DNA of 64,000 nucleotides. Origin: Escherichia phage MLF4. Positions within the stretch are counted from its first letter, which is position 1. Each line of letters begins with the position of its first letter. A program made the translations under genes and the position numbers. The notes under the pieces were generated by a model that did not search any database, had not been told where the DNA came from, and saw only the letters and a program-made list of their open reading frames with translations. The stretch is from sequence record NC_055780.1. The stretch is one strand, 5' to 3'. Positions 56,241 through 58,579 of this stretch are shown in pieces.

Positions 56241-56327
56241 GCGAGAATGGTCAAATTGGTAAAGGCACAGCACTTAAAATGCTGCGGAATTATTTCCTTG
56301 TGGGTTCGAGTCCCACTTCTCGCACCA
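56241..56327 (+). tRNA. tRNA-Leu (anticodon UAA)
   Basis: cloverleaf folded by eye: acceptor GCGAGAA/TTCTCGC, anticodon stem CAGCA/TGCTG with loop CTTAAAA, long variable arm, T-loop GGTTCGAGTCC, CCA encoded. Confidence 0.85.
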
Positions 56328-56332
56328 AATTT

Positions 56333-56406
<74 letters not shown>

Positions 56407-56416
56407 ATTTAATTTA

Positions 56417-56490
56417 CTCCGTGTAGCTCAGTTTGGTAGAGCGCCTGATTTGGGATCAGGAGGTCCAAGGTTCAAATCCTTGTATGGAGA
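56417..56490 (+). tRNA. tRNA-Pro (anticodon UGG)
   Basis: acceptor CTCCGTG/TATGGAG (two G-U), anticodon stem CCTGA/TCAGG loop TTTGGGA, T-loop GGTTCAAATCC; CCA not encoded. Confidence 0.85.
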
Positions 56491-56492
56491 CT

Positions 56493-56582
56493 GGAGGCGT
56501 GGCAGAGTGGTTGAATGCACCGGTCTTGAAAACCGGCAGTCGCTCCGGCGACTCATAGGTTCGAATCCTATCGCCTCCGCCA
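56493..56582 (+). tRNA. tRNA-Ser (anticodon UGA)
   Basis: acceptor GGAGGCG/CGCCTCC, anticodon stem CCGGT/ACCGG loop CTTGAAA, long variable arm, CCA encoded. Confidence 0.85.
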
Positions 56583-56587
56583 GTTTT

Positions 56588-56663
56588 GCTGATTTAGCTC
56601 AGTAGGTAGAGCACCTCACTTGTAATGAGGATGTCGGCGGTTCGATTCCGTCAATCAGCACCA
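56588..56663 (+). tRNA. tRNA-Thr (anticodon UGU)
   Basis: acceptor GCTGATT/AATCAGC, anticodon stem CCTCA/TGAGG loop CTTGTAA, T-loop GGTTCGATTCC, CCA encoded. Confidence 0.85.
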
Positions 56664-56664
56664 A

Positions 56665-56739
56665 GGCCCTGTAGCTGGAAGGTTCAAGCAAGCGACTCAT
56701 AATCGCCAGATGGTGGTTCAATTCCACCCAGGGCCACCA
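56665..56739 (+). tRNA. tRNA-Ile/Met type (anticodon CAU; T4 equivalent reads AUA as Ile)
   Basis: acceptor GGCCCTG/CAGGGCC, anticodon loop CTCATAA, T-loop GGTTCAATTCC, CCA encoded. Confidence 0.8.
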
Positions 56740-56745
56740 AATTAA

Positions 56746-56832
56746 GGGGAGTTATCCCGTAGAGGTAGCGGTGTGGACTGTAAATTCATTGTCATTGCGA
56801 CTCGGGTGGTTCGACTCCATCACTCCCCACCA
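56746..56832 (+). tRNA. tRNA-Tyr (anticodon GUA), class II
   Basis: acceptor GGGGAGT/ACTCCCC, anticodon loop CTGTAAA, variable arm GTCATTGCGAC and 3' end closely parallel bacterial tRNA-Tyr; anticodon stem has two G-U pairs. Confidence 0.75.
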
Positions 56833-56836
56833 ATTT

Positions 56837-56911
56837 GGATGTGTAGCTCAATGGCAGAGCGATCGCCTGTTAAGCGATTGGTTATAGGTTCGAATCCTAT
56901 CACGTCCGCCA
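56837..56911 (+). tRNA. tRNA-Asn (anticodon GUU)
   Basis: acceptor GGATGTG/CACGTCC, anticodon stem ATCGC/GCGAT loop CTGTTAA, T-loop GGTTCGAATCC, CCA encoded. Confidence 0.85.
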
Positions 56912-57025
56912 AATTTGTGACAACTGTCACATTAATATCTACTTGACGCGATTATAGGGGTTGAACTGATCACTCTTCTCTTAATTTCGTGTGAAGACAT
57001 CATGATTGTTGGAGTAGGTATTAAT

Positions 57026-57101
57026 GTGGCCGTAGTTCAGTTGGTAGAACTCGAGATTGTGATTCTCGTAGTCATGGGTTCGACTCCCATCGGTCACCCC
57101 A
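57026..57101 (+). tRNA. tRNA-His (anticodon GUG)
   Basis: acceptor GTGGCCG/CGGTCAC, D-stem GTTC/GAAC, anticodon stem CGAGA/TCTCG loop TTGTGAT, discriminator C, CCA encoded. Confidence 0.85.
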
Positions 57102-57105
57102 ATTA

Positions 57106-57181
57106 CGGGGCATAGCTCAGAAGGAAGAGCAAGGACCTTCTAAGTCCTGGGTCGTAGGTTCGATCCCTACTGCCTCGACCA
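57106..57181 (+). tRNA. tRNA-Arg (anticodon UCU)
   Basis: acceptor CGGGGCA/TGCCTCG, anticodon stem AGGAC/GTCCT loop CTTCTAA, T-loop GGTTCGATCCC, CCA encoded. Confidence 0.85.
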
Positions 57182-57199: not shown

Positions 57200-57550
57200 A
57201 TGAAAGGTAATGTTTATTTAGTAGTTCATGATTTAACATTCTATTTTAATCATAATGATACTGTTATTTCTGAACGTGTAATTAATTTGCTTTATCAGCA
57301 TGCAGATTATGTTTATGTCGAAAACGAATATGGTCATTGGCAATTTCTCAAAAATCGTTCATTTGGTTTAGATGGTTACGAATATTTTGAACGTAAAGAC
57401 CTTTTAGATAAAATTCCGTTATCTACACAATATCAAAATCATAAGTCTTTACATAAATGTCGACTAATTCGAAATGCTGAATCTGCTTATGAAGCAATTG
57501 ATTTATGGCGTTTACGCCGTGAACAGATTGATGCTTTAAAAGAATATTAA
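57200..57550 (+). CDS. hypothetical protein (116 aa)
   Basis: ATG at 57200 with GAGGAA SD directly after tRNA-Arg; no recognisable domain. Confidence 0.55.
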   Translation: MKGNVYLVVHDLTFYFNHNDTVISERVINLLYQHADYVYVENEYGHWQFLKNRSFGLDGYEYFERKDLLDKIPLSTQYQNHKSLHKCRLIRNAESAYEAIDLWRLRREQIDALKEY

Positions 57551-57890
57551 GAAGCCGGGTCGCTACCGGTAAGTCGTCGGACTGATGTTCCCTGAGTAAG
57601 GACTAGCCTTAATAAATCTTTATGTTTTGTTAATGCTCCCTTACATCACAGCAGAAACGGCGCACCGAATTATCGATTCGAGGAAATATCTTTGCCGTAA
57701 GCCGAGTAGCGTTTTTGACGGAACGTTCGGATATGGTCGAGATATGGCCTTTTAAAAATATTGAGTAGCGTCAACTGCTTGATAACCGGGTTCGAATCCC
57801 GGCGTTTCGTACAAACACTTGCCTTAGCAGGTGGAACCCCGACAAGGTTGCCGCAAGGCTTAGCCCCAGCCGAAAGGTTGGGGCTTTTTA
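57551..57890 (+). ncRNA. candidate small stable RNA(s) with tRNA-like T-arm, ending in strong terminator
   Basis: no long ORF in about 340 nt; contains CCGGGTTCGAATCCCGG (T-arm-like) and local hairpins; terminator AGCCCCAGCC-GAAA-GGTTGGGGCT+T5 at 57862..57889; may correspond to the T4 species 1/2 stable RNAs (from memory, unverified). Confidence 0.4.
57862..57889 (+). terminator. intrinsic terminator (10-bp stem, GAAA tetraloop, T-run)
   Basis: AGCCCCAGCC GAAA GGTTGGGGCT TTTT; near-identical module recurs at 58417..58444. Confidence 0.8.
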
Positions 57891-57935: not shown

Positions 57936-58409
57936 ATGAAATCATATACTCAATTTTTAAATGAAGCGGTGTTAAATGAAGCGTCTAGCACCGAAATTCA
58001 AGCTGTCGCAAAAGCAGCCATTGCAGCGGGTAAATATTCCTATAAAGATGCTTCTGATGAATCACGATTCCAATTTGCTCGCGACATGAAAGCAGAAGGA
58101 TTTACGGGGAATGCTGTTAGTATGGCCTGGAAAAGTTTAGTTGCTACTGGCGCTGCTTTTGCAAAGGCTTCGGGTAAACCTGCTCCTAAAGCAGATCCTA
58201 AAGTCACACAAGAGAAAAATATCGTTAAAGGAATTATCTCTAGGTATGAAGCAATTCTTAAAGAGCTTTTAGTAATCAAAACTGAAGGCCAAAAACTAGC
58301 TCGTGCTTATAGTTTCAAAGATAACCCACATGCTCACTCTCTTGAGTATGTTGAAGACATTCAAAAAATTATTAAAGACCGCATTTGGTCTGCTAAACAA
58401 ATCAAATAA
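57936..58409 (+). CDS. internal protein-like (capsid targeting sequence), 157 aa
   Basis: N-terminus MKSYTQFLNEA fits the CTS consensus with L-N-E cleavage motif; Ala/Lys-rich; own late promoter and terminator. Confidence 0.65.
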   Translation: MKSYTQFLNEAVLNEASSTEIQAVAKAAIAAGKYSYKDASDESRFQFARDMKAEGFTGNAVSMAWKSLVATGAAFAKASGKPAPKADPKVTQEKNIVKGIISRYEAILKELLVIKTEGQKLARAYSFKDNPHAHSLEYVEDIQKIIKDRIWSAKQIK

Positions 58410-58416
58410 CATTCTT

Positions 58417-58444
58417 AGCCCTAGCCGAAAGGTTGGGGCTTTTT
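58417..58444 (+). terminator. intrinsic terminator (repeat of the 57862 module)
   Basis: AGCCCTAGCC GAAA GGTTGGGGCT TTTT 8 nt after stop. Confidence 0.8.
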
Positions 58445-58579
58445 GGTATCTAGGCCTTTCCAGGCCTCTCTAGGCATCATTTAGTTTCTACCCTTTATAA
58501 TATATTATCCTATCTTTTAATTGCCCCTCCCTGCCCTAGAATTCCCTAAAACTTTTTAAAAAAATTTTTTCACAAAACG

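What the first reader, a model, noticed from the sequence alone, without database searches (positions are those of the whole stretch)
57551..57890. About 340-nt structured non-coding region with a tRNA-like T-arm downstream of the tRNA cluster
No long ORF; contains CCGGGTTCGAATCCCGG (a perfect T-stem/loop) without a recognisable acceptor or anticodon arm at the proper spacing, several short hairpins (e.g. CCGG-GTCGCTA-CCGG near the start), and a strong terminator. T4 encodes two stable small RNAs of unknown function in its tRNA region; this may be the counterpart or a degenerate tRNA, but I cannot assign it.
Basis: partly seen in the sequence, partly recalled or inferred. Interest (0 to 1): 0.45.

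Follow-up and report, generated by a model that had tools for sequence, protein, structure and literature searches.

The report
T4 species 1/2 stable RNA genes
This 340-base stretch holds this phage's copies of the two small stable RNAs known from phage T4 since the 1970s (rnaD and rnaC), followed by the terminator of the tRNA operon; it is an already known element, but comparison across phages shows that rnaC is a tRNA-shaped RNA with no free anticodon loop.

Summary
The window is a T4-like (Tequatrovirus) phage. Positions 57551-57890 align at about 94% identity with T4 rnaD (species 2 RNA), rnaC (species 1 RNA) and the terminator of the tRNA operon. No Rfam family matches it, and papers from 2010 to 2025 still call its function unknown.

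Mapped parts:
- rnaD, about 57547-57666
- rnaC, 57673-57811
- trailer and terminator, 57812-57890

One correction: an acceptor stem does exist. CGAUUCG (57674-57680) pairs with CGUUUCG (57803-57809), which lies directly 3' of the T arm.

In 26 rnaC homologues from at least ten phage genera, covariation supports a tRNA-like four-way junction. It has a 7-bp acceptor stem with two invariant U·U mismatches, a T arm, and a long arm in place of the D arm. A fourth hairpin has the loop CGUCAA, which pairs with the long arm's loop UUGACG. Marfavirus copies carry the compensated pair UUGGCG/CGCCAA and an encoded 3' UCCA.

In other genera rnaC sits between ordinary tRNA genes, like one more tRNA unit.

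Best reading (inferred): rnaC is a non-decoding tRNA mimic matured by the tRNA-processing enzymes. Its partner is unknown.

The parts
57547..57666 (+). rnaD homologue (T4 species 2 RNA, about 120 nt). The 5' end is placed by alignment to the T4 annotation and is uncertain by a few nt. It overlaps the stop codon of the upstream ORF.
   Evidence: Alignment to T4 rnaD, 71171-71053. The consensus fold has 93% of cells paired and 11 pairs with double changes. MFE z = -2.7.
57554..57570 (+). rnaD 5' hairpin: R-CCGG / GUCGCUA loop / CCGG-Y
   Evidence: The closing pair is A-U in 5 sequences, G-U in 3 and G-C in 2.
57573..57579 (+). rnaD long-range helix, 5' strand GUCGUCG. It pairs with 57658-57665 (CGGCGCAC, with one bulged C).
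   Evidence: RNAalifold consensus and window MFE. All pairs are invariant, so there is no covariation for or against.
57658..57665 (+). rnaD long-range helix, 3' strand, one nt before the T4-annotated 3' end
57667..57672 (+). 6-nt spacer GAAUUA between rnaD and rnaC. In other genera the matching position is the 5-7 nt spacer after an upstream tRNA's CCA.
57673..57811 (+). rnaC homologue (T4 species 1 RNA, 139 nt), a tRNA-shaped RNA
   Evidence: Alignment to T4 rnaC, 71046-70908. Covariance model R1 scores 180 bits, E = 1.6e-43, against 181.8 bits for T4 itself. MFE z = -3.8.
57674..57680 (+). rnaC P1 (acceptor stem), 5' strand CGAUUCG
   Evidence: Pairs with 57803-57809. Pair 3 is G-C in 18 sequences and A-U in 8. 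Two U·U positions are invariant in 26 of 26.
57686..57690 (+). rnaC P2, 5' strand AUAUC. It pairs with GAUAU at 57741-57745.
   Evidence: In the corrected register it forms 5 of 5 pairs in most homologues, with about 10 different sequence combinations. The three inner pairs all covary.
57694..57737 (+). rnaC P3 long arm (P3a/b/c), in the position of a tRNA D arm. It is capped by the 6-nt loop L1, UUGACG (57715-57720).
   Evidence: All three sub-helices covary. KaAlpha, PEi20 and the Marfavirus copies have different sequences but the same architecture.
57741..57745 (+). rnaC P2, 3' strand GAUAU
57746..57762 (+). rnaC junction J2/4 (GGCCUUUUAAAAAUAUU). GGCC and AAAAU are conserved. It is a candidate partner of the T loop.
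   Evidence: GGCC becomes CGCC only in the lineages whose T loop is UGCAUGC or UGCAUUC. This is a correlation from perhaps one evolutionary event.
57763..57780 (+). rnaC P4 hairpin, in the position of the anticodon arm: a 6-bp stem and the 6-nt loop L2, CGUCAA (57769-57774).
   Evidence: All 6 stem pairs show double changes. L2 is complementary to L1 in 26 of 26 sequences, with a compensated A-U to G-C change in the Marfavirus copies.
57786..57802 (+). rnaC P5, the T arm: CCGGG / UUCGAAU / CCCGG
   Evidence: Stem pair 3 is U-A in 14 sequences, G-C in 10, A-U in 1 and U-G in 1. The T-loop consensus UUCRANY is kept in 21 of 26.
57803..57809 (+). rnaC P1 (acceptor stem), 3' strand CGUUUCG, followed by the conserved UACAA (57810-57814)
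   Evidence: The tail is UACAA in 22 sequences, UACAG in 1 and UCCAA in the 3 Marfavirus copies.
57812..57861 (+). 3' trailer of the primary transcript, with a predicted hairpin at 57816-57833. It is conserved among Tequatrovirus-type phages and absent where rnaC is followed by a tRNA.
   Evidence: There is no covariation because the trailers are too similar.
57862..57890 (+). Intrinsic terminator of the tRNA/stable-RNA operon: a 10-bp stem, a GAAA loop and a U5 tract
   Evidence: It is homologous to the T4 terminator after rnaC. PMC2330249 states that the T4 tRNA-cluster transcript terminates after the species I RNA gene.

Best explanation
Shown: the region is the orthologue of the phage T4 rnaD-rnaC locus (species 2 and species 1 stable RNAs), followed by the intrinsic terminator that ends the tRNA operon.

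Shown by comparative analysis: rnaC (57673-57811) folds as a tRNA-like four-way junction.
- A 7-bp acceptor stem with two invariant U·U mismatches is continuous with a canonical T arm.
- An extended arm (P2-P3) replaces the D arm.
- A hairpin (P4) sits where the anticodon arm would be.
- The 6-nt loops of P3 (UUGACG) and P4 (CGUCAA) pair with each other, so no anticodon-like loop is free.

rnaD (about 57547-57666) is a separate RNA. It has a 5' hairpin and a long irregular hairpin closed by a long-range helix, and it has a lineage-variable tip.

Inferred: both RNAs are cut out of the polycistronic tRNA precursor by the host tRNA-maturation enzymes. RNase P would cut at the base of the rnaC acceptor/T-arm minihelix, which would also release the 3' side of rnaD, and exonucleases would trim the 3' ends. 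The trailer and terminator would be discarded.

Most likely function (inferred, about 35-40%): rnaC is a non-decoding tRNA mimic. It would use its acceptor/T-arm end to occupy or recruit a tRNA-recognising protein of the host or the phage. It may be part of the accessory, host-dependent function of the phage tRNA cluster.
For: Identity:
- The region is 94% identical to T4 over the whole 340 nt, and 804 phage records match it.
- Its coordinates fall on T4 features rnaD and rnaC.
- Model R1 scores 180 bits here.

Structure of rnaC, on 26 distinct homologues:
- 90% of cells are paired, against 33-45% when the 3' partners are slid by 1-3 columns.
- 23 pairs show double changes, against 0-8 in the slid controls.
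- 0 of 500 shuffles reach the observed percentage paired, the counts of double changes or the covariation score; 58 of 500 reach the count of further pair types.
- The acceptor pair 3 and the T-stem pair 3 both covary.
- P2 pairs in about 10 different sequence versions.
- The loop-loop helix is paired in 26 of 26 sequences, with A-U changed to G-C in the Marfavirus copies.

tRNA-unit behaviour:
- In EcS1, KaAlpha, Kc304, Melville and fGh-Ecl04, rnaC fills the gap between two annotated tRNA genes. It starts 5-7 nt after the upstream CCA and ends 7-10 nt before the next tRNA.
- Marfavirus copies encode U-CCA exactly where a tRNA carries its discriminator and CCA.

Expression and biology in T4 and a relative:
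- One primary transcript is the precursor of the eight tRNAs and of species I and II RNAs, and it terminates after species I (PMC2330249).
- RNAC and RNAD were classified as late RNAs from RNA-seq, with a supporting Northern assay; the only T4 riboprobe the methods describe is for RNAC. Their function was called unknown (PMC9697503; PMC3014915).
- A convergent SNP in rnaD arose in all three lines of a T4-like phage adapting to a semi-permissive host (PMC12685909).

Not coding: no frame is open across the homologues.
Against: - There is no direct evidence for any binding partner or for tRNA mimicry in vivo.
- The window's 3' tail is UACA, not UCCA, so CCA-dependent recognition is uncertain.
- Five homologues have lost the canonical T-loop sequence. 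Whatever reads the RNA therefore cannot depend strictly on the T loop.
- The loop-loop pairing rests on one compensated change in one clade.
- The T4 GenBank ends are one nt outside the 7-bp stem at the 5' end and two nt outside it at the 3' end. The exact RNase P site and the 3' end are therefore not settled here.
- From memory, T4 deletions that remove these genes grow normally on laboratory strains. This fits an accessory role, but it also fits no role under those conditions.
Confidence: 0.6

Rival explanations
1. The element is a cis-acting processing and stability module. On this view rnaC and rnaD have no role once released. Their structured, RNase P-recognisable bodies would only give correct cleavage and 3' protection of the polycistronic tRNA precursor, and they accumulate because they are nuclease-resistant by-products.
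For: - In Tequatrovirus they sit at the 3' end of the operon, just before the terminator.
- rnaC is spaced like a tRNA unit.
- The T4 primary transcript covers the tRNAs and both RNAs (PMC2330249).
- No function has been found in 50 years.
Against: - In at least five genera rnaC lies in the middle of the cluster, between two ordinary tRNAs. These tRNAs carry their own RNase P and 3'-end signals and need no protecting module.
- Selection has kept an elaborate internal architecture that a spacer would not need: P2-P4, the loop-loop pairing, the invariant tandem U·U and the conserved junctions.
- An adaptive SNP in rnaD points to a role that depends on the host.
Confidence: 0.22
2. rnaC or rnaD is a base-pairing regulatory RNA. 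It would act on phage or host mRNAs through conserved single-stranded segments such as J2/4, or through L1 or L2 when the loop-loop contact opens.
For: - The loops and J2/4 are more conserved in sequence than the stems. This could reflect a second pairing partner.
- Recent papers refer to them loosely as small regulatory RNAs (PMC9697503).
Against: - L1 and L2 are complementary to each other in every homologue and covary together.
- The terminator hairpin and U tail, the usual Hfq-binding end, lie outside the T4-annotated mature RNAs.
- No target is known, and none was sought here.
Confidence: 0.1
3. rnaC is a decaying tRNA pseudogene, or the region encodes a small protein. Several GenBank records annotate a 'hypothetical protein' over it.
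For: - The T arm is tRNA-like.
- CDS features are annotated over the homologous stretch in several phage records.
Against: - Compensatory changes keep every helix across at least ten genera, which a pseudogene would not show.
- The longest stop-free stretch in any + strand frame is only 14-28 codons in KaAlpha, fGh-Ecl04 and Melville, and no frame is open in all homologues.
- The T4 RNAs are stable and detected.
Confidence: 0.03

Closest known systems
Phage T4 rnaC (species 1 RNA; NC_000866.4 T4s001, 70908-71046)
   Same: It is orthologous. The two are nearly identical over all 139 nt, sit in the same position after rnaD and before the operon terminator, and get the same covariance-model score.
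   Different: There are only a few substitutions, for example a U-A to U·G change in P4 and one in J4/5. An extra ORF (57936-58409) follows the terminator here and is absent from T4.
Phage T4 rnaD (species 2 RNA; T4s002, 71053-71171)
   Same: It is orthologous. The 5' 45 nt and the 3' 25 nt are conserved, and the predicted fold is the same.
   Different: - The central hairpin tip differs, as it does between many Tequatrovirus isolates.
- In T4, rnaD starts 1-2 nt after tRNA-Arg. Here a 116-aa ORF (57200-57550) lies between them, so the 5' end must be made differently.
- T4 encodes ...CACCA at the 3' end, while this window has ...CACCG.
Canonical tRNA (Rfam RF00005)
   Same: rnaC has the same order of four helices around one junction. 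It shares a 7-bp acceptor stem continuous with a 5-bp T stem, the T-loop consensus UUCRANY, a 5-nt 'variable' linker, genomic placement as a unit in a tRNA cluster, and an encoded UCCA in the Marfavirus copies.
   Different: - There is no D arm. A 60-nt P2-P3 arm stands in its place.
- A 17-nt junction replaces the single nucleotide 26.
- The 'anticodon' loop has 6 nt, lacks U33 and is paired to L1.
- The acceptor stem has a tandem U·U.
- ARAGORN and RF00005 do not detect it.
tRNA-like domain of tmRNA
   Same: Both have an acceptor stem and T arm formed by the two ends of the RNA, with a large insertion in between, and both are matured like a tRNA.
   Different: rnaC has no G3·U70, no tag reading frame and no pseudoknot series, and it is 139 nt rather than about 360 nt. 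ARAGORN finds no tmRNA.
Other non-decoding tRNA mimics (bacterial YrlA / Y-RNA-like RNAs, viral tRNA-like structures). This comparison is recalled from memory and was not tested by alignment.
   Same: The principle is the same: a stable non-coding RNA presents a tRNA-like acceptor/T-arm or elbow to tRNA-binding enzymes without decoding.
   Different: No sequence or covariance-model similarity to any curated family was found. In rnaC the mimicry sits at the RNA's own termini, and the body is closed by a loop-loop contact.

Membership tests
T4 rnaC (species 1 stable RNA) | Full-length sequence homology to T4 rnaC | tested here: met
   The pairwise alignment is nearly invariant across 57673-57811. 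Model R1 scores 180.0 bits here against 181.8 bits for T4.
T4 rnaC (species 1 stable RNA) | Location within or at the end of the phage tRNA gene cluster, on the same strand | tested here: met
   Ten tRNA genes lie at 56241-57181 on the + strand. The T4 map shows the same order.
T4 rnaC (species 1 stable RNA) | Accumulates as a stable RNA of about 140 nt in infected cells | not testable with these tools
   This is known for T4 only (PMC9697503).
T4 rnaD (species 2 stable RNA) | Sequence homology to T4 rnaD and a position immediately 5' of rnaC | tested here: met
   The conserved 5' and 3' blocks and the variable centre are seen in 10 variants.
tRNA | A 7-bp acceptor stem contiguous with a 5-bp T stem and a 7-nt T loop | tested here: met
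   The stem has two U·U mismatches. Pair 3 of each stem covaries.
tRNA | A D arm, and an anticodon arm with a free 7-nt loop carrying U33 and an anticodon | tested here: not met
   P2-P3 replaces the D arm. The P4 loop has 6 nt (CGUCAA) and pairs with L1.
tRNA | Detected by tRNA gene finders or covariance models | tested here: not met
   ARAGORN finds none here. RF00005 gives no hit. The only related hit is a 16-bit tRNA-Sec partial match with E = 5.3.
tRNA | A 3' N73-CCA end, encoded or added | tested here: inconclusive
   The window encodes U-ACA-A, and the Marfavirus homologues encode U-CCA-A. Post-transcriptional addition cannot be tested here.
tmRNA | A tRNA-Ala-like acceptor with G3·U70, plus a tag-peptide reading frame | tested here: not met
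   Pair 3 is A-U or G-C. ARAGORN reports no tmRNA, and no conserved ORF exists.
Any curated Rfam family | A score at or above the family's gathering threshold | tested here: not met
   Nothing in 57547-57890 reaches a gathering score. The best sub-threshold hits have E > 1.

The most novel reading that the evidence does not exclude
rnaC may be a dedicated non-decoding tRNA mimic, kept by T4-like phages of enterobacteria. Its anticodon-position loop is occupied by an intramolecular loop-loop pairing, and its acceptor/T-arm end would act as a decoy or sponge for a host factor directed at tRNAs. One example would be a defence nuclease or toxin that targets tRNA acceptor ends. On this reading rnaC, and perhaps rnaD, would belong to the counter-defence function of phage tRNA clusters.
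Probability: 0.2. Interest if true: 0.75.

Novelty: already known. Interest (0 to 1): 0.3.

Why it matters
Finding the element here is routine, because it is T4's rnaD/rnaC locus.

Two points have some value:
- These are among the oldest phage-encoded RNAs whose function is still unknown. They have no Rfam family, and many GenBank phage records leave them unannotated or place a spurious 'hypothetical protein' over them.
- The comparative model built here gives concrete handles for experiments on that question. It consists of a tRNA-like four-way junction, an invariant tandem U·U in the acceptor stem, a covarying loop-loop contact, and a CCA end in the Marfavirus copies. It could also seed a curated RNA family.

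Tried and rejected
- **Rfam.** Neither the gathering-score scan nor the permissive E-value scan matched a family. A 16-bit tRNA-Sec partial hit reflects only the T arm.
- **Alternative acceptor pairing.** GAAACG at the 3' end of rnaD (57654-57659) could form 6 perfect pairs with CGUUUC (57803-57808). I rejected this as the conserved structure. Phages without rnaD keep the CGGUUCG/CGUUCCG pairing, and the A-U to G-C change covaries with the internal 5' strand. It could still form transiently in the dimeric precursor.
- **Alternative P2 partner.** AAUAU could pair with AUAUU in J2/4. This fits T4 and EcS1 by eye (sequences) but fails in IME523 and KaAlpha, where GAUG(N) pairs instead (register check).
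- **rnaD as a second tRNA-like RNA.** Its 5' hairpin (5 bp, 7-nt loop) and its 7-bp terminal helix are joined in the wrong topology for an acceptor/T-arm minihelix. It has no T-loop motif. The ACCA end of T4 is not conserved: other copies have ACCG, ACAG or ACCU.
- **Coding hypothesis.** No conserved frame exists.
- **Search for cellular homologues.** A motif scan of 185,579 representative genomes gave 55 hits, and model R1 scored none of them, so they are chance matches. A metagenome scan gave 97 stretches. Model R1 was run on the 80 loci listed (L088-L167) and accepted 8: seven T4-like and one Marfavirus-like. This added no new diversity.
- **Literature.** Searches for 'species 1 RNA', 'p2Sp1' and 'T4 species I' found none of the 1970s-80s primary papers in the held library. 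Statements about that literature are from memory and are marked as such.

Full report
**What the region is**

The window carries ten tRNA genes on the + strand at 56241-57181. A blastn search of 57551-57890 against 50,697 phage records found 804 matching records. Nearly all are T4-like phages of Escherichia, Shigella, Yersinia and Salmonella, and T4 itself matches at 94% identity.

The T4 reference record annotates, directly after tRNA-Arg, misc_RNA T4s002 and then misc_RNA T4s001:
- T4s002 is 'rnaD, small, stable RNA; species 2 RNA', at 71053-71171.
- T4s001 is 'rnaC; species 1 RNA', at 70908-71046.

A pairwise alignment puts the window region base for base on these two features and on the roughly 80 nt that follow them, down to a shared terminator. 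Mapped onto the window, the parts are:
- rnaD, about 57547-57666
- a 6-nt spacer, 57667-57672
- rnaC, 57673-57811
- trailer, 57812-57861
- terminator stem-loop, 57862-57885, with TTTTT to 57890

**Check of the observation**

Both halves fold better than shuffled controls. Rfam has no family for them at gathering scores, and permissive scanning gives only chance-level hits.

One sub-claim is wrong. There is an acceptor stem at exactly the tRNA spacing. The 7 nt that follow the T stem (CGUUUCG, 57803-57809) pair with CGAUUCG (57674-57680) through five Watson-Crick pairs and two central U·U mismatches.

**What is known**

- A 2022 transcriptome study classed both as late RNAs, cited a supporting Northern assay (its methods describe a riboprobe for RNAC), and again called the function unknown (PMC9697503).
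- The SegB paper describes a primary transcript of about 1.75 kb. It is the precursor of the eight tRNAs and of species I and II RNAs, and it terminates after the species I gene. The same paper describes T2-type clusters that carry extra ORFs and tRNAs, which is the arrangement seen here (PMC2330249).
- The primary papers of the 1970s and 1980s are not in the searchable library. From memory, they include Paddock and Abelson's sequence of species I RNA, and work on a dimeric 'p2Sp1' precursor and its processing.

**Homologues of rnaC**

Blast with divergent copies, two motif scans of viral contigs and a covariance model (R1) recovered rnaC in many T4-like phages of enterobacteria:
- Tequatrovirus, Mosigvirus (RB69), Karamvirus and Kanagawavirus
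- Kagamiyamavirus (EcS1) and Winklervirus (Kc304)
- Moonvirus and Gelderlandvirus (Melville)
- Edwardsiella phage PEi20 and Marfavirus

rnaD was found only next to Tequatrovirus/Mosigvirus-type copies.

Outside that group, rnaC usually fills the gap between two ordinary tRNA genes. It begins 5-7 nt after the upstream tRNA's CCA and ends 7-10 nt before the next tRNA. It therefore behaves in the genome as one more tRNA-sized processing unit.

A motif scan of representative bacterial and archaeal genomes gave only chance hits, and R1 accepted none of them. A metagenome scan added only near-identical phage copies among the 80 loci scored.

**Structure of rnaC**

On the 26 distinct sequences (alignment A7) I tested a model with these elements:
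- P1, the acceptor stem
- P2
- P3a/b/c, a long arm with the 6-nt loop L1
- P4, a 6-bp stem with the 6-nt loop L2
- P5, the T arm
- an L1-L2 loop-loop helix

The counts support it:
- 90% of cells are standard pairs, against 33-45% when the 3' partners are slid by 1-3 columns.
- 23 of 40 pairs show changes on both sides, against 0-8 in the slid controls.
- The covariation score is 0.371, against 0.035-0.119.
- No shuffle of 500 reaches the observed percentage paired, double-change counts or covariation score. The count of further pair types is not distinctive, since 58 of 500 shuffles reach it.

A caveat applies. The alignment was fitted to the model, which favours it. The earlier MAFFT-based alignment gave the same picture.

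Individual features:
- Acceptor pair 3 is G-C in 18 sequences and A-U in 8.
- The two U·U positions never change.
- T-stem pair 3 is U-A, G-C or A-U.
- All six P4 pairs and most P3 pairs show double changes.
- MAFFT and the model both misplace one gap in the 3' strand of P2. In the corrected register P2 forms 5 of 5 pairs in most sequences, using about ten different sequence pairs.
- L1 (UUGACG) and L2 (CGUCAA) are perfectly complementary in all 26 sequences. The three Marfavirus copies have UUGGCG and CGCCAA, a compensated A-U to G-C change. This is one evolutionary event, so the loop-loop contact is well motivated but not proven.

The order of helices around the junction is that of a tRNA: acceptor, then a D-position arm, then an anticodon-position arm, then a 5-nt linker, then the T arm, then the acceptor 3' strand. 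The D arm is replaced by a 60-nt arm, and the anticodon-position loop is paired to that arm's loop. No free anticodon-like loop is left.

Three further details:
- The T loop keeps the consensus UUCRANY in 21 of 26 sequences. The Kanagawavirus and Winklervirus copies have UGCAUGC or UGCAUUC instead. Only these copies change GGCC to CGCC in the junction after P2. This correlation would fit a tRNA-like contact between the T loop and 'D-loop' guanines, but it rests on perhaps one event.
- The 3' tail is UACAA in 22 sequences, UACAG in 1 and UCCAA in the Marfavirus copies. The Marfavirus tail is an encoded discriminator plus CCA at the tRNA position.
- The nucleotide 5' of P1 is U or A in every sequence. 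It faces U73, so an eighth U·U or A-U pair is possible. The T4 GenBank ends (5' U at -1, 3' ...GUA) would then correspond to an 8-bp stem plus one unpaired nucleotide.

No reading frame is conserved. The 'hypothetical protein' features placed over this stretch in several phage records are therefore most likely annotation artefacts.

**Structure of rnaD**

Ten variants give a consensus with 93% of cells paired and 11 pairs with double changes. The structure was derived from these same sequences, so the slid-partner control is generous to it. The consensus has these elements:
- A 5' hairpin, R-CCGG / GUCGCUA / CCGG-Y, whose closing pair covaries.
- An invariant long-range helix, GUCGUCG (57573-57579) with CGGCGCAC (57658-57665), which closes the RNA one nt from the T4-annotated 3' end.
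- A long irregular hairpin whose tip differs between isolates.

I found no convincing tRNA-like topology in rnaD.

In this window and in many relatives, a 116-aa ORF (phrog_3355) separates tRNA-Arg from rnaD. In T4 and some others, rnaD follows tRNA-Arg within a few nt.

**How it most likely works**

Shown:
- The homology to T4 rnaD and rnaC.
- The conserved folds.
- The placement of rnaC as a tRNA-like unit in the cluster.
- The terminator.

Inferred from established knowledge of bacterial tRNA maturation:
- The 12-bp coaxial acceptor/T-stem helix of rnaC is the minimal substrate form for RNase P. RNase P would cut at or next to 57673/57674, making the rnaC 5' end and freeing the 3' side of rnaD.
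- Exonucleases would then trim both 3' ends back to the terminal helices.
- The trailer and terminator would be removed.

Inferred with lower confidence:
- Mature rnaC presents a tRNA-like acceptor/T-arm end but cannot decode. It would act by binding something that recognises that end of a tRNA.
- Phage tRNA clusters are accessory and matter in particular hosts, and rnaD mutated convergently during adaptation to one host. I therefore favour a host-dependent, possibly counter-defence, role. That step is speculation.

**Rivals**

- **Cis-acting processing or stability module.** This fits the 3'-terminal position in T4. It does not explain why rnaC is kept with its full internal architecture between self-sufficient tRNAs in other genera.
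- **Base-pairing regulator.** This is disfavoured because the two most conserved loops pair with each other and the mature RNAs lack the terminator tail.
- **Pseudogene or small protein.** The covariation pattern and the lack of a conserved frame exclude both.

**Verdict**

The element is already known as T4 species 1 and species 2 RNAs, so it scores low on surprise. The function is still an open question. The comparative structure model derived here is the part that could be useful to a specialist.

Noticed in passing
window 57936-58445: A 157-aa ORF (57936-58409, phrog_2280, unknown function) is absent from T4 at this site. It is bracketed by two near-identical copies of the operon terminator (57862-57890 and 58417-58445). 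After the second copy the sequence rejoins the T4 e.8 upstream region. It looks like a gene cassette inserted at the terminator, with the terminator duplicated.
   Followed up: partly
window 57200-57550: A 116-aa ORF (phrog_3355, unknown function) lies between tRNA-Arg(TCT) and rnaD. T4 and some relatives (L009, L010) have rnaD within a few nt of tRNA-Arg. This is the T2-type arrangement described in PMC2330249. Its stop codon overlaps the position of the T4 rnaD 5' end, so rnaD's 5' end must be generated differently here.
   Followed up: partly
window 56912-57025: A 114-nt gap between tRNA-Asn and tRNA-His contains the palindrome TGTGACAACTGTCACA and a promoter-like TTGACG...TATAGG stretch. 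It may be an internal promoter or operator that separates two tRNA sub-clusters.
   Followed up: no
window 56746-56832: ARAGORN calls a tRNA-Tyr(GTA) here, but the Rfam tRNA model lists only nine of the ten tRNAs at gathering score and omits this one.
   Followed up: no
window 57654-57659 with 57803-57808: GAAACG near the 3' end of rnaD is perfectly complementary to CGUUUC, the 3' strand of the rnaC acceptor stem. It is not the conserved pairing, but in the unprocessed rnaD-rnaC dimer it could compete with the acceptor stem and influence the order of processing.
   Followed up: partly
L030:318-455, L031:317-454, L032:316-453 (Marfavirus phages); also hits H1, H5, H6, H12: Many GenBank phage records annotate a short 'hypothetical protein' CDS over the rnaC/rnaD homologues, and most records leave them unannotated. 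Only a few records label rnaC (RB68, Aplg8, Kha5h, T4).
   Followed up: partly
L003:1647-1760, L005, L013 (Kanagawavirus loci, downstream of rnaC): A further conserved non-coding stretch follows rnaC in these phages (…GTGGTGAAATTTGGTAGACACGACTGGAATAGCTTGTTTGAAACCCTGGTTGGTACCCAGGTGAGTAAGGCGG…). It contains a clear hairpin (CCCTGGTTGGTACCCAGG) and could be another small RNA.
   Followed up: no
L003, L005, L013, L014 (T loop of rnaC): In Kanagawavirus copies the T loop is UGCAUGC, which contains the 6-nt palindrome GCAUGC. This could allow loop-loop dimerisation of two rnaC molecules. The Winklervirus copy (UGCAUUC) is not palindromic.
   Followed up: no
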